64,000 bases of DNA from Burkholderiaceae bacterium (GTDB taxonomy: Bacteria; Patescibacteriota; Saccharimonadia; Saccharimonadales; AQU-01). Positions within the stretch are counted from its first letter, which is position 1; each line of letters opens with the position of its first letter. Made by a program: the position numbers and the translations under genes. Below, one piece after another: positions 7,165 to 42,479 of the stretch. The notes under the pieces are model-generated. The model was not told the DNA's origin and made no database searches. It was given only the letters and a program-made list of their open reading frames with translations. The stretch covers positions 51,208-115,207 of the forward strand of contig JAYVTZ010000002.1 of assembly GCA_043788365.1 (NCBI GenBank), read 5' to 3'.

Positions 7165-8265
7165 TTACTTGAATAAACCGTGTTTTTTGTTGCCCTTGAA
7201 CTCTTCTAACAATTCTTGTTGTTTTTTGCTAATTTTAGTTGGTGTATCGACTGTTATCGTCACGATGTGACTGCCTCTTGACGTACCTTTTAGGTGTGGC
7301 ACGCCGTGACCAGAGAGCTTAAAGTCGGTACCACTCTGTGTGCCGGCCGGGACCTTCATTTTGATTGAGCCATCGACCGTTTCGACCTTAATTTCAGTAC
7401 CAAGCGTGGCGTCAACCATGTCGATATGTTCTTCACTTAGGACCAAGTCACCTTCGCGGGTGAAGTTTTTGTGGGCTTTAACGCGAATATTTACATACAA
7501 ATCACCTTTTGGTCCGTTGGCCACGGCTTCACCGTGTTCTCTGAGTCTAATTGTGGCGCCATCATCAATGCCGGCCGGAACTTTGAGACGAATTTCTTGG
7601 CGTTTTTCCTGAACGCCCTTACCTTTACAGACGCTACAGACCTTCTCAGGCACCTTGCCAGTGCCTTTACAGGTCGCACAAACACTGGCTTGCTGAATAT
7701 TGCCAAAGACTGTGCGCATGACACGCATAACTTGGCCCGAACCACCACAGGTATCACAGTTTTTCAGTTCATAGCCAGGCTCAGCAGTCGTGCCCTTACA
7801 GTGCTCACAAGTATCGTCTAGGTTTATTGGCAGGGTCTTCTCAGCTCCAAAAATCGCTTCTTCAAAACTTAGCTCGATTGCAGCTTCAACATCACGGCCT
7901 CTAGCCTGTCGACTTTGCCCCTGGCTACCGTCACCAAAACCACCACCGAAAAAGCTACCCAAAATATCACCAAGGCCGAGGTCACCGAAGTCAAAATTTG
8001 TGCTACCGCCACCAAAACCGGCGTAAGGGTTACCATCACTAGCGGCGCTACTACCGACACCGGCATGACCAAACTGATCGTAACGTTGGCGCTTGGATGA
8101 GTCTTTTAGCACCTCGTAAGCTTCGTTGATTTCTTTAAATTTAGCCTCATCACCACCCTTATCTGGATGATGTTCAACCGCAGCTTTTCTAAAAGCCTTT
8201 TTAACTTCATCAGCACTAGCTGACTTGCCAATACCTAATACTTCATAATAATCACGTTTTGCCAT
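7165..8265 (-). CDS. dnaJ: Chaperone DnaJ
   Basis: J-domain HPD (VEHHPDKGGD), G/F-rich linker, four CxxCxGxG zinc-finger repeats and the C-terminal domain. Confidence 0.95.
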   Translation of the reverse strand: MAKRDYYEVLGIGKSASADEVKKAFRKAAVEHHPDKGGDEAKFKEINEAYEVLKDSSKRQRYDQFGHAGVGSSAASDGNPYAGFGGGSTNFDFGDLGLGDILGSFFGGGFGDGSQGQSRQARGRDVEAAIELSFEEAIFGAEKTLPINLDDTCEHCKGTTAEPGYELKNCDTCGGSGQVMRVMRTVFGNIQQASVCATCKGTGKVPEKVCSVCKGKGVQEKRQEIRLKVPAGIDDGATIRLREHGEAVANGPKGDLYVNIRVKAHKNFTREGDLVLSEEHIDMVDATLGTEIKVETVDGSIKMKVPAGTQSGTDFKLSGHGVPHLKGTSRGSHIVTITVDTPTKISKKQQELLEEFKGNKKHGLFK

Positions 8266-8654
8266 CAGTTAGTATCTCGTTTCTTGTTGCTAGTATCTCG
8301 TATATGCCTAGACAGACCGTTTATCAATTTATGAACCTCTATTGACTGATTGCTAAGACTTAGAAAATATTTTTTTGAAATCAACTTCAATTCAGCACAT
8401 AGAATAAGCTGGTCCTGTACTTCAGTCAATGAACCCCTGGCAATATTATAGAAATTTAGTTTTTCCTTGGAGCTGTTACGCCCAAACCCCTCGGCAATAT
8501 TTGAAGCCACTGAAATCGATGAACGCTGGAGTTGCGTTCCCAGACCATATTGGTAAACTTGCGGGAAGGTTGCTGTGTGCTGAATTATCTCTATGCGTAG
8601 TGTGTGAGATTTCTTCCAGGCATTCAAATCAACAAAACTCTTTATTGTACTCAT
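8265..8654 (-). CDS. Four-helix-bundle protein (23S rRNA intervening-sequence protein family)
   Basis: LNAWKKSH...QLQRSSISVASNIAEGFGR...FYNIARGSLTEVQDQL is family-typical. Its TGA overlaps the dnaJ ATG (TGATG). Confidence 0.75.
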   Translation of the reverse strand: MSTIKSFVDLNAWKKSHTLRIEIIQHTATFPQVYQYGLGTQLQRSSISVASNIAEGFGRNSSKEKLNFYNIARGSLTEVQDQLILCAELKLISKKYFLSLSNQSIEVHKLINGLSRHIRDTSNKKRDTN

Positions 8655-8721: not shown

Positions 8722-11616
8722 CTATCTATCTTGATATTTTAATATTTTGGCGACCGCTAGACCAATCAAAAATAGTGCCAGAACAGTCAATGCCGCCCAA
8801 CCTAAGCCGCGCAGTTGATAAAGCACTGCAGCAACTGCCACATATAGCCCCCACATCGTCACAAATCGCTTACCTATAAACATACCTATTATCATGAAAC
8901 AAACCTCTTCAAGCAGTAACCACCAACCATAAAGACCGCCGGAGACTCCTGATAATGCCTGCAATACCAGAGGCAAAGTAGCAACGCTTAGCATCATATA
9001 AAGATATTGGTCAGATTGACTAGTTTCGCTGCGTAAGTAGCGCCAGTACGAATAAAGCGCAAATTGAATCACCAGCACATGGCTATAGGCCTGAATGTTG
9101 TTAATACCTACGTAGCCCATGAACCAAAATATTGACAAAGTAAATAAGCCGCCGGCTAGTTCTTTATTTTGTTGTTCGGTGTCACGCACGTGGTAGTAAA
9201 CAAGTATGGCAGCAACCAATAGTCCGATCGGCATTGGCCAAAGTGTCCTGGCAATAAACATGATACACAACGGATTCAAAAAGCTAGCTACTAACGCCCC
9301 TGATTTCTGTGAGTTTGCTCGGGCTCTAAGTATTTTACTGGTCTGTTGATCGCTGAGCGCAAAGTAGCAAACCACCGCCAAAACTGAGCTTAGTATTAGA
9401 TAGCCATAGACCATGCCGGAAGTAGGGTGAGGCCGCAAAATACTTGCTAAAATAGCCTGGATCATAATCGGCAATAACATGTATAGAGTCGGTTCTTTCT
9501 CGACTTTTCGTCCCAAGAGCCAAATCAGTAAGGTCACGGCTATTAGTATGGCGCTGGAGTGAAGCTGACTGTTCGATGACATAAGTGATAACATCACTGC
9601 AGCCAAAGCGGCCGACCAATAACCGACAACATACGAATAGCTGGCTGTTCGAGCATAACTCGCCATCGGCACTTTGTAAGATACGAACGTAACCCCTCGT
9701 GCTATTGCCCTTGATAGAATAAGGCCTATCATGACTACTAAGTATGCCCAGGCATAGGCAGCCGAGCTCCACTGCCCACCCAATAGCCCGCGCCCTAAAG
9801 CTACTGGCAGAATCATCCAAAGAATAGTACTTACCCATCTGTTTGGCTCGACTCGGTAACGTAGCGAAATGGCTATATTAGCTAGTAGTGCTATAAGAAC
9901 TGTTGCCAGCAATGCGCCCGGCGACAACCACACTCTAACGAGCGGTAAGGTCACAAATAGACCAGAGATGATTGCCCAATTTTTGTCACGTTTTACTTTA
10001 GCAAGATAGATAGTCGTTGTCGCAATTAATAAGCCGGTGAACAAACTAAACCATGGTCCAGCAAATATACCCACAATAACTACTGCTAGGGCGCTTGCCA
10101 TATATACTTGTCCAGCGGTATTTTGCCAGTTAGCACGTAACCCCCGCCGTTTTGGCGAAACTAAAACTAGTAATTGAAATAATAGGCTCGATGCCATTAA
10201 CATCGTTTGGGATTCGGCAGACATTATCGGATCGGCGACCAACTGAGCAAAAATCAGTGGTAAAGACATACAAGAAATGGCAGCAACAGCGTAAAAGCCA
10301 GTTCTGTTTTGTTTAAGCCACGCAAGCACCGACATCAAGAAAAGTACAAATGTAGAGAATAGGATCGCAGTGTGGTGCTGAAAGCCTACGGCTAGCGCCA
10401 TCATCTGTGAAAATATGACAACTGACGCATAGTTCTGCCAAATAGTGTCTTGTTTGGTAGTAAACCATAGAATAATCATCTCAACTGCGTTAATCAGCGT
10501 TAGTGCAACTGCGGCTGACAATAATGAGTGTCCGGCGCTGTAGAACAACAAGCCCACTCCGATATTAAACGAAAGATGAGCGGCTAGAGCATTGTTCTGT
10601 TTGGCTTCTCCAGATGATGACATGATTTCGAGACCGTAAAAGGCTGCAGCCAGCAAAAACGAGACCCCTAGCTGACCAAAACCTTGAGTGGTTACGATAC
10701 CAAGGGAGACAATGATTGACAGTGGTAAATAGATCATCGCACTCATCTTGCTTGACTCGTTGATTTCGGGCCAACGACTATTAAGGTGGCTAATAGCTGA
10801 TAGGACAATTCCAACTAGTGCGAGCATCCAGCCAAAGTAATAAATTGGTGCCGAAGTTATCGATACTGCCGATTCAAATAATGACAAAAATGTGAATATA
10901 AATACGTAGTTCATCAGTGGCTTATGTAACTTCATGACTGCGTGTGAATACATTACTAGGCAGAGTAGTGACGTAATAAACCAGATTATCTTGGCATCGG
11001 CCGGTCCAAGCAAATATTTATAGACTGTCAGCCCAATAAGAGGCGCAATAGCAACCCCGATGCCGGCAAAAGCAATTCCGGCCTGCTCTAAACGTTGCCT
11101 ATTTTCATAGAGCCATATTCCGCTCATATACATTGTGAGCGTAACCACTGCAACAATTAGACTCCTCAGGCCACCAGACAAACCACCAAACGCCACAAAC
11201 AATCCAGCAGAGGCGACAAATAAAAATGCTCCGAAATAAAGTAATAGCGAGGCGTTATCAAGCTGGATTTGGTTTTTGGCTTTTTCTTGCGTGAATACGT
11301 CATCATTGGCTACCGTGAGTTCGGCTTGCTGATTTTCAGGCTGCCCTTCACTGTCAAAAAACTGGTCGTCATCGATATAGTCAAGTTCTGGTACAGGTAC
11401 ACCCGAATCTCTAATGTCTTCTAGGATTAAGCCAAGTATCTCTTTTTGGGCCTTATTTTTAGCATTTTTTAGATATCCAGCGATAAACACTGCCCATTCA
11501 CGGTTTCTTTCATTCAATTTATCGTCTAATTGCCGAGTTGTGGCCGTGCCTTTAGCTGGCCTTTTTATTATCCAGACCAAAAACAACAAAAACAAAATAA
11601 CTGTAAGCGCGCTCAT
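8722..11616 (-). CDS. Large polytopic membrane protein (964 aa, >20 predicted TM helices), function unknown
   Basis: Long ORF, almost entirely hydrophobic helices after an ~110-aa cytoplasmic N-terminus. Confidence 0.7.
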   Translation of the reverse strand: MSALTVILFLLFLVWIIKRPAKGTATTRQLDDKLNERNREWAVFIAGYLKNAKNKAQKEILGLILEDIRDSGVPVPELDYIDDDQFFDSEGQPENQQAELTVANDDVFTQEKAKNQIQLDNASLLLYFGAFLFVASAGLFVAFGGLSGGLRSLIVAVVTLTMYMSGIWLYENRQRLEQAGIAFAGIGVAIAPLIGLTVYKYLLGPADAKIIWFITSLLCLVMYSHAVMKLHKPLMNYVFIFTFLSLFESAVSITSAPIYYFGWMLALVGIVLSAISHLNSRWPEINESSKMSAMIYLPLSIIVSLGIVTTQGFGQLGVSFLLAAAFYGLEIMSSSGEAKQNNALAAHLSFNIGVGLLFYSAGHSLLSAAVALTLINAVEMIILWFTTKQDTIWQNYASVVIFSQMMALAVGFQHHTAILFSTFVLFLMSVLAWLKQNRTGFYAVAAISCMSLPLIFAQLVADPIMSAESQTMLMASSLLFQLLVLVSPKRRGLRANWQNTAGQVYMASALAVVIVGIFAGPWFSLFTGLLIATTTIYLAKVKRDKNWAIISGLFVTLPLVRVWLSPGALLATVLIALLANIAISLRYRVEPNRWVSTILWMILPVALGRGLLGGQWSSAAYAWAYLVVMIGLILSRAIARGVTFVSYKVPMASYARTASYSYVVGYWSAALAAVMLSLMSSNSQLHSSAILIAVTLLIWLLGRKVEKEPTLYMLLPIMIQAILASILRPHPTSGMVYGYLILSSVLAVVCYFALSDQQTSKILRARANSQKSGALVASFLNPLCIMFIARTLWPMPIGLLVAAILVYYHVRDTEQQNKELAGGLFTLSIFWFMGYVGINNIQAYSHVLVIQFALYSYWRYLRSETSQSDQYLYMMLSVATLPLVLQALSGVSGGLYGWWLLLEEVCFMIIGMFIGKRFVTMWGLYVAVAAVLYQLRGLGWAALTVLALFLIGLAVAKILKYQDR

Positions 11617-24674: not shown

Positions 24675-25604
24675 CTAGCGCTCATGGCTATCGAGTGCCA
24701 AATTATCGGTTTTTACGATCAGCGAGAACTGTTTATCGACTGATAGGCTACGTTCTGGTGGCAGCGTTTTAGCACCATGAACCAACCGCTCAATCTGCTT
24801 TTTGTCAATATTTGTCACGCCTTGGCCGCGCAACCAGCTAATCATGACCTCACGCGCCACCACATGTGGCAACATAATGAACCAGTGTCGATCAAGTTTG
24901 TTGGCTGACGGATGAATATCCAAATAATTCTCTAGTTCTTTGTTAATTTTGACATTTAATTCCGACAACTTATCGATATGTTCAAACAGCTGACTCTTAT
25001 CCTCTGCCGAAAACTTAGCCACTAGGTTGTGCCTTATGTAATTGCGTAGATACTTAGTGTCCAGATTGGTACTATCTTCACGCCACTGTATATTATTGCT
25101 CGTAGCGTAGTTAGTGATATCTTCCTTGGTCTTGCTAAGCAGTGGCCTTATCAATTGATTGCCAGATTTTAATGATGTAAGGCCACGTCTACCAGTACCC
25201 CGTACAATATTAATAATTGCCGTTTCGAGCATATCGTCTTGGTGATGGGCAGTAATGATGGCTTTAGCACCTGCAGTCTTCCGAACCTGTTCTAAAAATT
25301 GATAACGCGCATGCCTAGCTTTTTGTTCACTGGCATCTGTTCCCAAATAACCCTTGTCATAAACAAACGGTAGACCATATCCATTTGCCATCTTTTGTAC
25401 AAATAACCGATCTTCGCCGGAATCTATTCTAATACCGTGGTCAAAGTGAGCTACAATCAGTTTTAGTTTTCGGTGTTTAGAACTACGGCTTAGAATATCC
25501 AGCAGAGACATCGAGTCAATTCCGCCCGATGCCGCAACAACGTAAACTCCCGGTTCAATCTTGACATCCATAGATTTGCTAACATGAGCCCTGCTTAACA
25601 CCAT
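24675..25604 (-). CDS. tilS: tRNA(Ile)-lysidine synthase TilS
   Basis: PP-loop ASGGIDSMSLL and AHHQDDMLET. Alternative start MDVKIEP at 25571. Confidence 0.85.
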   Translation of the reverse strand: MVLSRAHVSKSMDVKIEPGVYVVAASGGIDSMSLLDILSRSSKHRKLKLIVAHFDHGIRIDSGEDRLFVQKMANGYGLPFVYDKGYLGTDASEQKARHARYQFLEQVRKTAGAKAIITAHHQDDMLETAIINIVRGTGRRGLTSLKSGNQLIRPLLSKTKEDITNYATSNNIQWREDSTNLDTKYLRNYIRHNLVAKFSAEDKSQLFEHIDKLSELNVKINKELENYLDIHPSANKLDRHWFIMLPHVVAREVMISWLRGQGVTNIDKKQIERLVHGAKTLPPERSLSVDKQFSLIVKTDNLALDSHER

Positions 25605-25608
25605 ACTT

Positions 25609-25650
25609 TGGTAGCGGCGACAAGATTTGAACTTGGTGACCTTGAGGCCT
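25609..25650 (-). repeat. tRNA-Met 3' fragment (variable loop, T-arm, acceptor, CCA)
   Basis: tggtagcggcgacaagatttgaactt (26 nt) is identical to 25761..25786; the next ~16 nt are diverged. Confidence 0.75.
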
Positions 25651-25760
25651 ATATTGCTTCAAGCCATGAACGACTTTTTTGATAAGGCCTGTCGTTCTTG
25701 GTTTCTTCATATAATTTTTGTTAATCATAATAATTATGAGTCCTACTTAACGCACAATTT

Positions 25761-25837
25761 TGGTAGCGGCGACAAGATTTGAACTTGTGACCCCAGGCTT
25801 ATGAGTCCTGTGCTCTAACCAACTGAGCTACGCCGCC
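25761..25837 (-). tRNA. tRNA-Met (anticodon CAU, elongator-like), CCA encoded
   Basis: GGCGGCG TA GCTC AGTTGGTTA GAGC A CAGGA CTCATAA GCCTG GGGTC ACAAG TTCAAAT CTTGT CGCCGCT A CCA. Resembles the E. coli elongator Met tRNA in the D-arm and variable region. 31:39 is an A-G mismatch. Confidence 0.85.
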
Positions 25838-37848: not shown

Positions 37849-38003
37849 CTAATCTGTTCTTTTGTCTTGAATGTTCGATGTCTTGTTCGATTTCGAGAGA
37901 GGATTCTCGAAATCGGGAGGAGATGGCTTGGTGGGGTAACTAGAACTGACGGTCAAACTTGTTTTGCCGGCGGTTCAGTTACCCAACCATCACACATCGA
38001 CGA

Positions 38004-38078
38004 CGCGGGGTGGAGCAGCGGCAGCTCGCGTGGCTCATAACCACGAGGTCCCAGGTTCGAGTCCTGGCCCCGCTACCA
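38004..38078 (+). tRNA. Initiator tRNA-fMet (anticodon CAU), CCA encoded
   Basis: CGCGGGG TG GAGC AGCGGCA GCTC G CGTGG CTCATAA CCACG AGGTC CCAGG TTCGAGT CCTGG CCCCGCT A CCA. Has a 1:72 mismatch and A11:U24. Close to the E. coli initiator tRNA. Confidence 0.85.
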
Positions 38079-38083
38079 AAGTA

Positions 38084-38111
38084 AAAGACTCATCGTAAGA
38101 TGGGTCTTTTT
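38084..38111 (+). terminator. Rho-independent terminator after tRNA-fMet
   Basis: AAAGACTCATC-gtaa-GATGGGTCTTTTT. Same stem arms as the tRNA-Lys terminator. Confidence 0.7.
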
Positions 38112-38230
38112 CTTTGGTACAAAGTCCGGCTCGGTTCTGGGACTCGACAGTCTAAGCTGGCGATAGTCCCATAGTTCGCTAATCCCCCGTCCGCTTTAGC
38201 GGATAAACGGGCGAATTATACCTTAGTATT

Positions 38231-38246
38231 CCTGGCCCCCTACCAA
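38231..38246 (+). repeat. Partial copy of the tRNA-fMet 3' end
   Basis: CCTGGCCCC-CTACCAA compared with CCTGGCCCCGCTACCAA at 38063..38079. Confidence 0.55.
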
Positions 38247-40408: not shown

Positions 40409-40861
40409 CTACTCGGCTTGTCGGTGGAGGAAGAAATTAACCCAAGCCTGAAGATTTTGACGATAAACTGGCTGGTCTTTGGCCACAACTACACCGCTAG
40501 TACTGACTACTTGCGCTAGGTCAACGGTATGGGCTAAGGCTACCTTATTTGGTATTAGATAAACCCTCTCGCCGGGAGCGGCCAGACCAAACTGCCTGCG
40601 AGCAGACAGCTCAAGAAATTCATCGGTATTTAGATACTGATTTTTAAGATCTAGGTTCTTGTTCTCAAGCTGGTGTAGTTGATTCTCTTGTTCTAGAGTT
40701 GCGATCTGTTTTTGTAAGGAATAGTTAGCCTGTATGGCTTTTATGCCGCTCCAACTGACTAAAATTGCAATCACACCAAAGCCAAGCAACATCAGCACCC
40801 TGACATCACTGAGGTCACGGTAGATGTTGTTAAATTTGGTTTTACTTATTTTTATTCGCAT
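40409..40861 (-). CDS. Septum formation initiator (FtsB/DivIC-like) protein
   Basis: N-terminal TM, then a coiled coil (LQKQIATLEQENQLHQLENKNLDLKNQ) and FGLAAPGERVY. Confidence 0.65.
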   Translation of the reverse strand: MRIKISKTKFNNIYRDLSDVRVLMLLGFGVIAILVSWSGIKAIQANYSLQKQIATLEQENQLHQLENKNLDLKNQYLNTDEFLELSARRQFGLAAPGERVYLIPNKVALAHTVDLAQVVSTSGVVVAKDQPVYRQNLQAWVNFFLHRQAE

Positions 40862-40944: not shown

Positions 40945-41403
40945 ATGTCTACAGATATCAGCGGTGAAATATTAAGAGCTGACCCTACGACCACAGTCTA
41001 TTTGGAAGACATTGGCGGCATATTGGATGACCTAACGATTCTTGGCGAATTAGATAGCCATGCCGCAAATACGGAAATCAAAAGTCGACCCGACGGTATA
41101 GCCAGGTCTGTTAAAATCACCAAAGGTATTACTGCTGCCTTGAGACTCAATCCGGAATCTTCTCAGTCTTGGCAAGATCAGGCAAACTGCTTAGGCGTAG
41201 ACCCTGACCTGTTCTTCCCTAAACGTGGTGCTAGTACAAAAGAGGCAAAGGAGGTTTGTGGACAATGTGATGTTCGCTTGGTTTGCCTGGAATACGCTCT
41301 TGTTAACGGTGAAAAAGTTGGTATATGGGGCGGATTATCCGAACGAGAGCGAAGAAGAATCCGTGGTCAAAGGTTTAGAGACTCCAAACGAACTCAGGCT
41401 TAA
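40945..41403 (+). CDS. WhiB-like (Wbl) Fe-S transcription factor with ~75-aa N-terminal extension
   Basis: C-X27-C-X2-C-X5-C: ANCLGVDPDLFFP...CGQCDVRLVCLEYALVNGEKVGIWGGLSERERRRI. Confidence 0.8.
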   Translation: MSTDISGEILRADPTTTVYLEDIGGILDDLTILGELDSHAANTEIKSRPDGIARSVKITKGITAALRLNPESSQSWQDQANCLGVDPDLFFPKRGASTKEAKEVCGQCDVRLVCLEYALVNGEKVGIWGGLSERERRRIRGQRFRDSKRTQA

Positions 41404-41461
41404 TCTGTTATAATCGTTTTGTTATCGTTGAAAATGAGAAGAATATTTGGGTCCGCACAAA

Positions 41462-41503
41462 GTCTCAGTCGTTAAAGCAGTCGGCTCATAATCGACTGAT
41501 TAA
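41462..41503 (+). repeat. Partial copy (D-arm plus anticodon arm) of the downstream tRNA(CAU)
   Basis: GTCTCAGTCGTTAAAGCAGTCGGCTCATAAtcgaCTGATTAA compared with GCTCAGTGGTTAGAGCAGTCGGCTCATAACTGATTGG. Confidence 0.7.
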
Positions 41504-41606
41504 GGAGATTATATGCAGAGCCCAAGGAAACCTTCTGATAAAATAATAGTTTCCCTGGAGCGAAGCTATATAACTGATCATTAAAAATACATTGGTAAAT
41601 TATGGA

Positions 41607-41682
41607 GGGGGTATAGCTCAGTGGTTAGAGCAGTCGGCTCATAACTGATTGGTCCTTGGTTCAAATCCAAGTACCCCCACCA
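41607..41682 (+). tRNA. tRNA with CAU anticodon, Ile2 (lysidine)-like, CCA encoded
   Basis: GGGGGTA TA GCTC AGTGGTTA GAGC A GTCGG CTCATAA CTGAT TGGTC CTTGG TTCAAAT CCAAG TACCCCC A CCA. The Ile2 assignment rests on resemblance to ileX-type tRNAs and is tentative. Confidence 0.8.
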
Positions 41683-41700
41683 TAATTTCCCAATATTGTT

Positions 41701-41735
41701 CTTGGTTCATCTGTCAGCCGACGGACCAAGTACCC
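41701..41735 (+). repeat. Partial copy (T-arm plus acceptor 3' strand) of tRNA(CAU) with a 16-nt T-loop insertion
   Basis: CTTGGTTCA[tctgtcagccgacgga]CCAAGTACCC. Confidence 0.7.
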
Positions 41736-41825
41736 AATAGCAAAGGTTCTGTTTTATCAATATGCTTATGCTGTTATTTGTTATATTATTTACTTGAAAC
41801 AACATCTAAAAAGTAAAAGGTAAAA

Positions 41826-42479
41826 ATGAACCCTCAGGAACCACTGAATATCGTACCTGGACAGCCCGCGAGTCAAACTCCATTAGTGGTTGAGCCACAA
41901 AGTACACCTCCCGCACCAATAACCGTCCAGCCAATGATAGTAACTGGGCCACAGAATATCGTGCCAGGCACGCTAGGCTCGGCGACCATACCTCAGCACT
42001 TCGTTCCCGGACAGGTCCCAGGCCAACAAACAACCTCTGCGGAACCAGCCAAACTTGGTATGTTTGAGCGCAGAATGGGACGGATGGATTACTTCATCGG
42101 TGGTTTGTATGCCGTAGCATTGTTAATATTGCCTTCGATAGTTATGTTTGGATTGTCACTTTACGCTAGCCGTAGTTCACTATATAGTACCGGTACTTCC
42201 AGTAATCATTTAGTAACGGTAAATATAATTAGCCTACTCGTCGGACTTATTGTTATCGTGGTACTTATACCTGTGTCTTTGTCGCTTAGTATCAGACGGC
42301 TACACGACCTCGATCGCCCCGGAATTCTTGCTCTATTAGGCTTTGTGCCATATGCTGGGGCGCTATTTAGCCTTTACCTACTATTCGCACCAGGCACTAT
42401 TGGGCCAAACAAATACGGCAACCCTATTACTTCTAAAAACTTTTTCGTAGTCGTTGGGCTCAAACGACCGTTGAGCTAA
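41826..42479 (+). CDS. DUF805-family membrane protein with Pro-rich N-terminus
   Basis: RRMGRMDYFIGGLY...SIRRLHDLDRPG pattern. Confidence 0.7.
   Translation: MNPQEPLNIVPGQPASQTPLVVEPQSTPPAPITVQPMIVTGPQNIVPGTLGSATIPQHFVPGQVPGQQTTSAEPAKLGMFERRMGRMDYFIGGLYAVALLILPSIVMFGLSLYASRSSLYSTGTSSNHLVTVNIISLLVGLIVIVVLIPVSLSLSIRRLHDLDRPGILALLGFVPYAGALFSLYLLFAPGTIGPNKYGNPITSKNFFVVVGLKRPLS

What the first reader, a model, noticed from the sequence alone, without database searches (positions are those of the whole stretch)
41462..41735. Second nested tRNA locus: Ile2-like tRNA(CAU) with a leader-trailer helix, flanked by an anticodon-arm copy and a T-arm copy
On the plus strand the locus contains:
- 41462..41503: a copy of the D-arm plus anticodon arm of the tRNA, with a 4-nt TCGA insertion just after the loop.
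- 41513..41584: an SD-preceded 23-codon ORF (TAAGGAG-5 nt-ATG; MQSPRKPSDKIIVSLERSYITDH).
- 41591..41606: leader ATTGGTAAATTATGGA.
- 41607..41682: the intact tRNA.
- 41679..41694: ACCATAATTTCCCAAT, complementary to the leader. 14 of 16 positions pair, leader -1 is again unpaired with A73, and CCA is again base-paired.
- 41701..41735: a copy of the T-arm and acceptor 3' strand, with 16 extra nt in the T-loop.

That T-loop insertion (TCAGCCGACGG) resembles the reverse complement of the tRNA anticodon stem (GAGCCGACTGC).

The architecture and the -1/73 geometry match the tRNA-Met locus 16 kb away, although the sequences are unrelated. Both tRNAs read CAU. The lysidine synthase gene tilS lies next to the other locus.
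Basis: seen in the sequence. Interest (0 to 1): 0.65.

Follow-up and report, generated by a model that had tools for sequence, protein, structure and literature searches.

The report
tRNA-Ile2 gene nested in broken copy
A working isoleucine tRNA gene of an uncultured Saccharibacterium sits inside the wreck of an older copy of itself, clamped by a leader-trailer stem, next to a small undescribed hairpin element lodged in the dead copy's anticodon loop; the same layout recurs in other uncultured bacteria.

Summary
The intact tRNA (41607-41682) is an Ile2-type CAU tRNA. A 15-nt leader pairs with CCA plus trailer, and partial copies of the tRNA lie on both sides. Three details need correction. The "TCGA insertion" is the start of an 80-nt structured element, X (41492-41571), which sits right after the anticodon loop CTCATAA of the upstream pseudo-copy. 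The 23-codon ORF lies inside X and is not conserved. The T-loop/anticodon-stem resemblance is statistically weak. I found X four times: here, at the tRNA-Met locus 16 kb away, and in two metagenome contigs (one Ile2, one fMet). It always follows CTCATAA in a non-functional tRNA copy, and its hairpin stems differ but stay paired. A whole-locus counterpart in another species (L100) keeps the promoter, fragments, X and a leader-trailer helix with 5 compensatory pairs. Such helices are discrete and rare (6 of 199 tRNAs) and covary at the tRNA-Met locus. The closest tRNA relatives lack the architecture. Best reading: the ancestral gene was killed by a nested duplication and later colonised by an anticodon-loop-specific insertion element, and the helix is a processing or folding stem. 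The origin mechanism and any function remain inferred.

The parts
41406..41414 (+). Extended -10 promoter motif TGTTATAAT, just after the WhiB stop codon. It probably drives one transcript across the whole locus.
   Evidence: The motif TG[CT]TATA[ACT]T lies within 70 nt upstream of 17 of 114 Ile2-type tRNAs, mostly 8-15 nt from +1, against a background of 0.06 per kb. The surrounding TCTGTTATA.TCGTTTTGT is conserved in L100. No terminator-like site was found in 41300-41900.
41446..41491 (+). Outer 5' pseudo-copy of tRNA-Ile2: a decayed acceptor and D-arm, then an intact anticodon-stem 5' strand and the loop CTCATAA (41485-41491).
   Evidence: 41464-41498 is 86% identical to 41617-41651 (D1). 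It lies at the normal distance from the promoter and is collinear with L100's outer copy.
41492..41571 (+). Element X, an 80-nt structured insertion directly 3' of anticodon-loop position 38. P1 pairs 41488-41493 (ATAATC) with 41507-41512 (GATTAT). P2 is a hairpin, 41522-41531 with 41549-41558. A conserved AGA/GAA internal loop is present. The 3' end is GAAGCTATAT.
   Evidence: Homologous copies occur at window 25733-25651(-), L100 and L154. The P2 inner stems all differ yet all pair: GAAAC/GTTTC, ACAAC/GTTGT, AACGAC/GTCGTT, CCCGC/GCGGG. P1 is compensated in L100 and in locus 1. No Rfam family matches.
41513..41584 (+). It lies inside X and is judged non-coding.
   Evidence: L100 has ATC in place of the ATG. 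L154's frame stops after 11 codons. The locus-1 frame runs 43 codons into the tRNA fragment (sequences). The variation follows base pairing, not codons.
41572..41579 (+). Resumption of the outer pseudo-tRNA (AACTGATC, positions 37-44) after X.
   Evidence: ATAACTGAT is repeated exactly at 41570-41578 and 41641-41649 (D9). In L154 and L100 the same piece matches each locus's own tRNA.
41591..41606 (+). Leader arm of the leader-trailer helix. 41591-41605 pairs with 41680-41694, and A41606 (-1) is unpaired.
   Evidence: I1; in the MFE fold. It is conserved in L100 with 5 compensatory pairs.
41607..41682 (+). Intact tRNA-Ile2 (anticodon CAU, CCA encoded), the functional gene.
   Evidence: ARAGORN and Rfam detect it. 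It is 75/76 identical to the tRNAs of L145 and L154. Its best E. coli match is annotated tRNA-Ile. Its anticodon arm is the widespread Ile2 type.
41680..41694 (+). Trailer arm of the helix (CCATAATTTCCCAAT). It includes the encoded CCA.
41698..41735 (+). Outer 3' pseudo-copy: the T-arm and acceptor 3' strand, with a 16-nt insertion (41710-41725) in the T-loop and no CCA.
   Evidence: D4, D6, I4. T-loop-interrupted 3' fragments also occur in L128 and L095. The insertion's complementarity to the anticodon arm is weak.
41437..41450 (+). Possible outer closing helix. AGAAGAATATTTGG is complementary to 41689-41702, and TTGGGT (41446-41451) is complementary to ACCCAA (41731-41736).
   Evidence: I2: 14 nt, 86%. 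Not tested for conservation.
25651..25733 (-). Second copy of element X, between tRNA-Met and tilS. It follows CTCATAA (25740-25734) of a pseudo anticodon arm.

Best explanation
**What is there.** The only functional gene here is the inner tRNA-Ile2. It is embedded in the remains of the ancestral copy of the same gene. That outer copy still sits at the normal distance behind the native promoter.

**How it arose (inferred).**
1. A segment made of linker, leader, complete tRNA and trailer came to lie in the variable-loop region of the outer copy, which killed it.
2. This was probably a replication template-switch or duplication event seeded by the palindromic acceptor stem. Such an event would also explain why the leader is the reverse complement of CCA plus trailer.
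3. The dead copy's anticodon loop then became a safe landing site for X. X is a small structured insertion element that targets the 3' side of CAU anticodon loops (CTCATAA). It can persist only in redundant tRNA copies.

**How it works now (inferred).**
1. The whole ~330-nt region is transcribed as one precursor.
2. The 15-bp leader-trailer helix extends the acceptor stem to about 22-23 bp.
3. This clamps the true 5' and 3' ends together amid decoy half-tRNAs. It probably also serves as a double-strand (RNase III-type) processing stem.
4. The unpaired -1/73 position then lets RNase P and 3' trimming finish at the encoded CCA.

**Shown:** the anatomy, the homology, the covariation and the rarity.
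**Inferred:** the order of events, the template-switch origin, co-transcription and RNase III processing.
For: **Anatomy and non-randomness.**

**The outer copy is the in-situ ancestral gene.**
- The promoter motif lies 31 nt before the outer fragment but 192 nt before the intact tRNA. In 17 simple loci it lies 8-61 nt upstream, mostly 8-15 nt.
- L100 and L161 share the promoter. L161 has a plain gene there.

**The outer copy is dead.** Its acceptor and D stems have decayed in both the window and L100.

**X is an element in its own right.**
- Four copies were found in 801 kb of loci, always right after CTCATAA.
- They sit in three different tRNA types: Ile2, Met and fMet.
- They are always in a partial or pseudo copy next to an intact gene.
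- Flanks are conserved, P2 stems are fully covarying and P1 is compensated.
- In L154, whose Ile2 tRNA is 75/76 identical to the window's, X sits at fMet and not at Ile2. X has therefore moved or been lost on a short timescale.

**The helix is a selected structure.**
- The score distribution is bimodal: 6 of 199 tRNAs score 10 or more.
- At the tRNA-Met locus 84.6% of cells pair against 35-57% in slid controls. Ten pairs changed on both sides, and 0 of 500 shuffles reached this.
- Between the window and L100, 13 leader-trailer pairs are kept and 5 changed on both sides.
- L109, L082 and L212 have the helix without fragments.

**Support for a template-switch origin.**
- L193 is a young-looking example in another CPR lineage. 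It has a perfect 21-bp palindrome including -1:73, and near-identical outer fragments.
- Direct and inverted tRNA fragment copies are common around CAU tRNA genes in these genomes (L106, and the fMet loci of L145, L095, L176 and the window).

**No mobile-element enzymes nearby.** No integrase, transposase or RT was found among 50 window ORFs.
Against: - There are no expression or processing data, so co-transcription and RNase III cleavage are unproven.
- No transposase or other mobilising enzyme was identified for X. X is rare, and its conserved purine internal loop and P1 pairing with the anticodon-loop mimic could equally indicate an RNA-level function.
- The whole composite is collinear between two species with structure-preserving changes. 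That is unexpected for neutral debris.
- L100's fragments are 100% identical to its inner tRNA. This requires gene conversion or a recent origin.
- The closest tRNA relatives (L145, L154) lack the long helix, so at this locus its conservation rests on one relative.
- L161 has the 3' repeat without the 5' module, so the two flanks may come from separate events and not one nested insertion.
Confidence: 0.45

Rival explanations
1. The flanking fragments are classical att-site footprints. Integrative elements (phage, ICE or CIME-like) integrated once at the anticodon loop and once at the T-loop or 3' end of the tRNA gene. They restored the gene with their own tRNA segment and displaced the host fragments. 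X would be an attP arm left after the element interior was deleted.
For: - Direct repeats of tRNA 3' ends downstream of tRNA genes are common in the sampled loci (L161, L088, L128, L100 and the fMet loci).
- The fragment boundaries fall at the anticodon loop and the start of the T-arm, the usual integrase sublocations (established knowledge).
- L161 shows the 3' repeat without the 5' module, so the two flanks can arise independently.
- X's 3' end (GAAGC-TATATAA) mimics an anticodon stem-loop half.
Against: - The spacers between the tRNA and the 3' repeat are only 15-21 nt (window, L100, L161).
- No integrase or other element gene lies in or near any of the loci, nor among 50 window ORFs.
- X was not found in viral contigs, phages or plasmids.
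- X has a fixed length and a covarying hairpin, unlike random deletion remnants.
- The left and right junction "cores" are not identical (CTCATAA versus TATATAA).
- The model does not explain a leader that is complementary to the trailer.
Confidence: 0.15
2. The composite is a functional, selected precursor. The tRNA-like leader, X and the CCA-sequestering helix form a cis-acting RNA device. One option is a "safety catch" that keeps the 3' end of CAU tRNAs unavailable to MetRS until TilS or other steps have acted. Another is a decoy or sensor that presents an AUA/AUG-containing strand to a CAU anticodon loop.
For: - The whole architecture is collinear in two species, with compensatory changes in both P2 and the leader-trailer helix.
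- P1 pairs the anticodon-loop mimic (A35-A38 plus 2 nt) with GAUUAU. The next base, A, faces C34, so the strand reads AUA opposite C34-A35-U36.
- X keeps a conserved AGA/GAA purine internal loop, typical of protein-binding RNA.
- Every case involves a CAU tRNA. One X copy lies in the tilS 5' region.
- Unmodified tRNA-Ile2(CAU) is charged by MetRS (PMC3575796, PMC11301382), so delaying exposure of the 3' end would be useful.
- The region's predicted fold is more stable than shuffles, z = -4.56.
Against: - The architecture is absent from most Saccharibacteria Ile2 loci, including those with a 75/76-identical tRNA. It is therefore dispensable.
- The outer acceptor and D stems decay.
- Helices also occur at elongator tRNA-Met genes, where no such need exists.
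- No Rfam family, T-box included, matches.
- The loci sampled are mostly CAU tRNAs by design, so CAU specificity of the helix is untested.
Confidence: 0.15
3. X is an RNA-level intron, and the outer pieces form an intron-containing (or split) tRNA that is spliced to give a second functional tRNA. This would resemble archaeal disrupted tRNA genes or a miniature self-splicing intron.
For: - X sits in the anticodon loop with 2-4 nt of junction redundancy (ATAA).
- An internal strand (GATTATAT) can pair with either junction, giving alternative helices P1 and P3 reminiscent of an internal guide.
- Patescibacteria are rich in tRNA introns (PMC13011429).
Against: - 80 nt is far too small for group I, and no intron family matches.
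- The position, 38/39, is not among those reported (33/34 to 37/38).
- No bacterial enzyme is known for protein-dependent tRNA splicing.
- Every X-bearing copy is truncated or decayed and is accompanied by an intact gene.
Confidence: 0.05
4. The pattern is chance similarity or an assembly artefact that chains strain variants.
For: The source is a metagenome-assembled contig. The Logan unitig breaks inside the tRNA's anticodon loop.
Against: - The unitig independently confirms the order fragment, X, linker, leader, tRNA.
- Exact repeats within the locus are shorter than typical k-mers.
- The same layout appears in independent metagenomes.
- Empirical backgrounds show the features are outliers.
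Confidence: 0.03

Closest known systems
Leader-trailer processing helices of bacterial rRNA operons (RNase III stems)
   Same: A 5' leader pairs with a 3' trailer to enclose the mature RNA in a duplex of about 20 bp or more. The sequence varies while the pairing is kept.
   Different: Here the helix encloses a single tRNA and is coaxial with the acceptor stem. It sequesters the encoded CCA and leaves -1/73 unpaired. Cleavage by RNase III is untested.
Direct repeats of tRNA gene 3' segments left by integrative elements (attL/attR)
   Same: A displaced T-arm and acceptor fragment lies downstream of an intact tRNA gene, with boundaries at loop and arm junctions.
   Different: The spacer is 15 nt, with no element or integrase. 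There is also a 5' fragment, a complementary leader and a structured 80-nt element.
Group I introns in anticodon loops of Patescibacteria tRNA genes (PMC13011429)
   Same: The same phylum, and the same target region (the anticodon loop) of tRNA genes, including CAU tRNAs.
   Different: X is 80 nt, has no group I core and sits at 38/39. It is found only in non-functional copies beside an intact gene.
Disrupted archaeal tRNA genes: non-canonical introns and split or permuted genes (PMC4390854, PMC4090602)
   Same: A tRNA sequence is interrupted at unusual positions (about 26, 38 and 45). Complementary flanks bring the pieces together.
   Different: This is a bacterium (TilS, DivIC, WhiB). No BHB motif or splicing endonuclease is shown. 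The insert is itself a complete tRNA.
Small non-autonomous palindromic insertion elements (IS200/IS605-derived PATEs, Rickettsia palindromic elements, Correia elements) - from my own knowledge
   Same: Length is about 80-150 nt, dominated by an imperfect hairpin. Structure is conserved more than sequence. Insertion is at a specific short target, sometimes inside RNA genes.
   Different: No terminal inverted repeats and no partner transposase were identified. Copy number is very low, and the target is restricted to CAU anticodon loops.
Quasi-palindrome template-switch mutagenesis - from my own knowledge
   Same: It would turn a short inverted repeat (the acceptor stem) into a longer one, making the leader the reverse complement of the trailer. 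L193's perfect 21-bp palindrome fits this.
   Different: It has not been described as a generator of nested tRNA gene copies. In the older examples the -1/73 mismatch must be secondary.

Membership tests
tRNA-Ile2 (lysidine-dependent CAU tRNA) | CAU anticodon in a canonical cloverleaf | tested here: met
   ARAGORN and Rfam, 72.8 bits.
tRNA-Ile2 (lysidine-dependent CAU tRNA) | Body resembles known Ile2 tRNAs more than Met or fMet tRNAs | tested here: met
   The best annotated E. coli match is tRNA-Ile (87.7-89.5% over positions 8-64). The 25.7-kb tRNA matches tRNA-Met. tRNAscan-SE isotype models and TFAM were not available.
tRNA-Ile2 (lysidine-dependent CAU tRNA) | TilS encoded by the genome | tested here: met
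   24675-25604(-) has PF01171, and its homologues are named TilS.
RNase III-type leader-trailer processing stem | Leader and trailer form a duplex of about two helical turns enclosing the mature RNA | tested here: met
   7 bp of acceptor stem plus 14 of 15 further pairs.
RNase III-type leader-trailer processing stem | Pairing is conserved by compensatory change in relatives | tested here: inconclusive
   Met at the sister tRNA-Met locus. At this locus it is met only against L100 (5 compensatory pairs). L154 has a 6-bp vestige, and L145, L161 and L211 have none.
RNase III-type leader-trailer processing stem | Cleavage by RNase III in vivo or in vitro | not testable with these tools
   No transcript-end data are available.
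Integrative-element att footprint | Direct repeat of a tRNA segment bounding an element that carries an integrase | tested here: not met
   Repeats are present, but the spacer is 15 nt and no integrase was found among 50 ORFs.
Integrative-element att footprint | Identical core sequence at both junctions | tested here: not met
   CTCATAA at the left junction of X versus TATATAA at the right.
Group I tRNA intron | Conserved P1-P9 catalytic core, about 200 nt or more, detectable by Rfam Intron_gpI | tested here: not met
   X is 80 nt and has no Rfam hit even at E<=10.
Archaeal-type (BHB) tRNA intron or split tRNA | Bulge-helix-bulge motif at both junctions and a splicing endonuclease | not tested
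   No BHB was evident in the folds. The endonuclease was not searched for. The organism is bacterial.
T-box or other known cis-regulatory RNA | Match to a curated covariance model | tested here: not met
   Rfam at gathering and E-value thresholds returned only the tRNA and chance-level hits.
IS200/IS605-type miniature element (PATE) | Subterminal hairpin(s), no TIR or TSD, insertion 3' of a short specific target | tested here: inconclusive
   A hairpin and a fixed target (after CTCATAA) are present in all four copies, with no TIR. However, only one major hairpin is present, and the ATAA redundancy at the junctions is ambiguous.
IS200/IS605-type miniature element (PATE) | Cognate Y1 transposase in the genome | not tested
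   Only a 64-kb window is available. None was found among the ORFs scanned.
Protein-coding small ORF (41513-41584) | Start codon, frame and length conserved in homologues | tested here: not met
   L100 has ATC, L154 stops after 11 codons and locus 1 runs 43 codons.

The most novel reading that the evidence does not exclude
X defines a new class of very small structured elements, about 80 nt, specific for the 3' side of CAU anticodon loops. The "tRNA-inside-tRNA" layout with a CCA-sequestering leader-trailer stem would then be a maintained precursor design and not debris. In that reading it is an RNA device that controls the maturation or identity of CAU tRNAs (Ile2/Met/fMet) in Saccharibacteria and other CPR bacteria.
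Probability: 0.22. Interest if true: 0.8.

Novelty: new variant of a known kind. Interest (0 to 1): 0.6.

Why it matters
CAU tRNAs are a weak point of bacterial decoding. The same anticodon serves initiator Met, elongator Met and, after lysidine modification, Ile.

This locus shows three things in ultra-small Saccharibacteria genomes. First, these genes carry conserved leader-trailer stems that hide the CCA end. Second, they are hotspots for nested and inverted self-duplication. Third, they host a previously undescribed 80-nt hairpin element that targets their anticodon loops.

If the stems are processing signals, they add a tRNA maturation route resembling rRNA processing. If X is mobile, it is among the smallest target-specific elements known, and it exploits dead tRNA copies as safe havens.

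The findings also matter for annotation. Such loci break assemblies and can yield spurious small ORFs and pseudo-tRNAs.

Tried and rejected
- **Genome-contig scan with the WhiB neighbour.** It returned only actinobacterial WhiB domains and no orthologous locus. That scan was wasted.
- **WhiB homologue search.** No full-length relative was found.
- **DivIC relatives.** The closest (77%, L206) lies on a 797-nt contig that ends before the tRNA. Others either lack a nearby tRNA or have a plain gene (L211).
- **Searches for X outside the sampled loci.** Three viral-contig pattern scans plus phage and plasmid BLAST found nothing.
- **Rfam at a permissive threshold.** No family covers the flanks. Ribozyme, T-box and tmRNA-like readings are rejected at that sensitivity.
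- **Group I intron reading.** Rejected on size and on the lack of a model match.
- **Coding reading of the 23-codon ORF.** Rejected for lack of conservation.
- **X as a promoter or terminator.** No consensus sites were found.
- **T-loop insertion as an "antisense" to the anticodon stem.** Kept only as a weak observation.
- **TIR-type MITE reading of X and of the inner cassette.** Rejected. The termini of X are not inverted repeats, and the cassette's inverted repeats differ completely between loci.
- **Literature searches.** They did not find a description of this layout.
Full report
**Context.** The window is cellular DNA of about 43% GC. TilS homologues are named Candidatus Saccharibacteria or Saccharimonadales, and the best non-self hits are 61-64% identical. 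Neighbours of the locus are divIC (40409-40861, -), a WhiB-like gene (40945-41403, +) and a DUF805 gene (41826-42479, +). The window holds four tRNAs, three with anticodon CAU. Their best matches among annotated E. coli genomes are as follows:

| tRNA | Coordinates | Best match / classification |
|---|---|---|
| t2 (this finding) | 41607-41682 | tRNA-Ile (ileX-type) |
| t1 | 25761-25837 (-) | tRNA-Met |
| third CAU tRNA | 38004-38078 | initiator-like (C1 mismatch read from the sequence) |

The anticodon arm of t2 is a very widespread Ile2 signature.

**Observation.** All listed features are present.
- The upstream copy 41464-41498 is 86% identical to 41617-41651.
- The inverted repeat 41591-41613 / 41672-41694 is 23 nt and 91% complementary.
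- The downstream T-arm halves are 41698-41709 and 41726-41735, around 16 extra nt.
- The helix pairs 14 of 15 positions beyond the acceptor stem. It includes CCA and leaves A(-1)/A73 unpaired. It also appears in the minimum-free-energy fold of 41420-41745 (z = -4.56).
- An independent Logan unitig is identical from WhiB through the fragment, linker and leader into the tRNA.

I used the fetched loci as an empirical background. Of 199 tRNAs, only six have a leader-trailer score of 10 or more: both window loci, L193, L100, L109 and L082. The next best scores 6. Flanking self-similarity of the window's size is seen in only a handful of 111 Ile2 loci.

The upstream copy ends exactly at the anticodon loop CTCATAA (41485-41491). 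The next 80 nt (41492-41571) are homologous to a stretch at the tRNA-Met locus (25733-25651, -). They are also homologous to stretches in two metagenome contigs:
- L100, upstream of a tRNA-Ile2.
- L154, upstream of the initiator tRNA. There the preceding 38 nt are an exact copy of that tRNA's positions 1-38.

In all four cases X starts right after CTCATAA (CTCATAT in L100). It is followed by the local tRNA's own positions 37-44/46. The X-bearing copy is truncated or decayed and lies beside an intact gene.

X has these conserved features:
- Conserved ends: TCGAS...GATTATATGCAGA.CCCAAG at the 5' side and CCTGG.G.GAAGCTATAT at the 3' side.
- A hairpin P2 whose inner stem differs in every copy yet always pairs (GAAAC/GTTTC, ACAAC/GTTGT, AACGAC/GTCGTT, CCCGC/GCGGG), with the same mismatched A.
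- An AGA/GAA internal loop.
- A helix P1 between the loop's ATAATC and GATTAT, which is compensated in L100 (ATATTC/GAATAT) and in locus 1 (ATAATT/AATTAT).

A structural descriptor search of 801 kb of loci found only these four copies, plus the Logan duplicate. X has no Rfam match and no match in viral contigs, phages or plasmids. The 23-codon ORF lies inside X. Its ATG is ATC in L100, and the frames differ in length in L154 and locus 1, so I reject it as a gene.

**Comparative picture of the locus.**

| Locus | Relation to the window | What is at its Ile2 gene |
|---|---|---|
| L100 | Collinear over about 340 nt | Conserved promoter TCTGTTATA.TCGTTTTGT, decayed outer 5' copy, X, linker, leader, intact tRNA (67/76 identical), trailer, outer 3' copy |
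| L161 | Shares L100's promoter and the divIC synteny | Plain tRNA gene plus only a perfect 3' repeat 19 nt downstream |
| L145, L154 | Ile2 tRNA 75/76 identical to t2 | No fragments and no long helix. L154 keeps 6 bp, two of them G-U |
| L211 | DivIC relative | Simple gene |

RNAalifold on the window and L100 keeps 13 leader-trailer pairs, 5 of them changed on both sides. L154 carries X at its fMet gene and not at its Ile2 gene.

So the architecture is shared by at least two species but is patchy. X differs in location between close relatives. The extended -10 motif (41406-41414) lies 192 nt from the intact tRNA but at the normal distance from the outer copy. In 17 simple loci it ends 8-61 nt, mostly 8-15 nt, from +1. 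This marks the outer copy as the original gene position.

**The helix as a feature in its own right.** At the tRNA-Met/tilS locus the helix is present in the window, in L082 (TilS 61%) and in L212 (TilS 64%). L082 and L212 have no fragments. On the four-species alignment 84.6% of cells pair, against 35-57% when partners are slid. Ten pairs show changes on both sides, and 0 of 500 shuffles reach the observed values. L109 has a helix at a simple Ile2 gene. L193 comes from a different CPR-like lineage. It has a perfect 21-bp palindrome including -1:73, near-identical outer fragments (positions 1-29 and 43-76), and an inner tRNA ending ACCC. It looks like a young instance of the same process.

**Interpretation.** I read the locus as follows.
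1. The outer copy is the ancestral tRNA-Ile2 gene.
2. It was inactivated when a segment containing a full tRNA copy with leader and trailer came to lie in its variable-loop region.
3. The leader is the reverse complement of CCA plus trailer and is exactly contiguous with the acceptor stem. A replication template switch seeded by the acceptor-stem palindrome would produce this. That origin is my inference, based on the known quasi-palindrome mechanism, on L193, and on the many direct and inverted tRNA fragments around CAU tRNA genes in these genomes.
4. Covariation shows that the pairing is then maintained. This is plausible as a double-strand processing stem and as a clamp. The clamp would stop the real tRNA halves from mispairing with the decoy halves in the same transcript.
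5. X is best explained as a small insertion element specific for the 3' side of CAU anticodon loops. It survives only in redundant copies, because hitting a sole essential tRNA gene would be lethal. That logic accounts for its exclusive association with pseudo-copies.

No integrase, transposase or reverse transcriptase was found among 50 ORFs of the window.

**Rivals.**
- *Integrase att footprints.* These explain the 3' repeats in general. They fit poorly with the 15-21-nt spacers, the absence of any element genes, the non-identical junction cores and the complementary leader.
- *A functional composite precursor* (a CCA "safety catch" or anticodon-loop decoy). This is attractive because unmodified tRNA-Ile2 is charged by MetRS (PMC3575796, PMC11301382), and because structure-preserving changes span the whole composite. 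But the layout is absent from most relatives, and the outer stems decay.
- *An RNA intron or split-tRNA reading.* This is unlikely given X's size, its position (38/39, against the 33/34-37/38 reported for Patescibacteria group I introns, PMC13011429) and the decayed host copies.
- *Artefact or chance.* Excluded by the independent unitig and by the independent metagenomes.

**Limits.**
- Only four X copies and one whole-locus counterpart were found.
- My single genome-collection scan was wasted on the WhiB domain.
- The sampled tRNAs are mostly CAU by design, so CAU specificity of the helices is untested.
- No transcript data exist.
- I could not run tRNAscan-SE isotype models.

Noticed in passing
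window 38004-38240 (+); also L145, L095, L176: The initiator-type tRNA(CAU) is followed by a terminator whose stem includes the CCA (ACCAAAG...CTTTGGT). Next comes an inverted, diverged copy of the tRNA's 3' half. A direct copy of the 3' end (TCCTGGCCCCCTACCAAG, about 38222-38239) lies roughly 150 nt downstream. The same three-part layout recurs in relatives, in L095 with a hairpin inserted in the T-loop copy.
   Followed up: partly
window 37890-38003 versus L145 (upstream of its tRNA-Ile2): The ~110-nt structured leader upstream of the window's fMet tRNA (GGAGATGGCTT...ATCACACATCGACGA) is homologous to the leader of the tRNA-Ile2 gene in L145. Leaders appear to have been exchanged between different CAU tRNA genes.
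   Followed up: no
window 40945-41403 (+): A WhiB-like protein in a Saccharibacterium. Its C-terminal domain is 70-85% identical to WhiB of Acidimicrobiia and other Actinomycetota. No full-length homologue exists among 5.8 billion proteins. The closest divIC relative (L206) seems to start a similar gene (MATDGP...). This may be a gene acquired from an actinobacterial host.
   Followed up: partly
L193 (contig of 2226 nt; tRNA on the - strand 1988-2065): A non-Saccharibacteria-type Ile2 locus with a perfect 21-bp palindrome around the tRNA. The inner tRNA ends ACCC and not ACCA. A 64-nt GC-rich hairpin is inserted in the D-loop of the outer 5' fragment.
   Followed up: partly
L081 (Logan unitig), end at window 41641: The independent unitig stops inside the anticodon loop of the intact tRNA. 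This could reflect a branch in the assembly graph, meaning a strain variant or the repeated 16-nt anticodon-arm sequence.
   Followed up: no
window 25560-25610 (-), and L084 about 9050-9075: A tRNA-like trailer motif GTTAAG.AGG.CTCAT follows the tRNA-Met gene. It occurs twice in the window, the second copy abutting the tilS start codon, and in diverged form in L084. It may be an old partial tRNA duplication or a tilS-proximal signal.
   Followed up: no
window 8265-8654 (-): A gene for a 23S rRNA intervening-sequence protein family member (PF05635, E = 8.5e-34) lies next to dnaJ, away from any rRNA gene.
   Followed up: no
L115, L095, L154: In several Saccharibacteria-like contigs the terminator after a tRNA is built as CCAAGAAAA-hairpin-TTTTCTTGG. 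The encoded CCA is therefore routinely drawn into the terminator stem. This is a different way of pairing the 3' end.
   Followed up: no
window 41779-41787 (+): A second extended -10 motif (TGTTATATT) lies 39 nt upstream of the DUF805 gene. Transcription of that gene is therefore probably independent of the tRNA locus.
   Followed up: no
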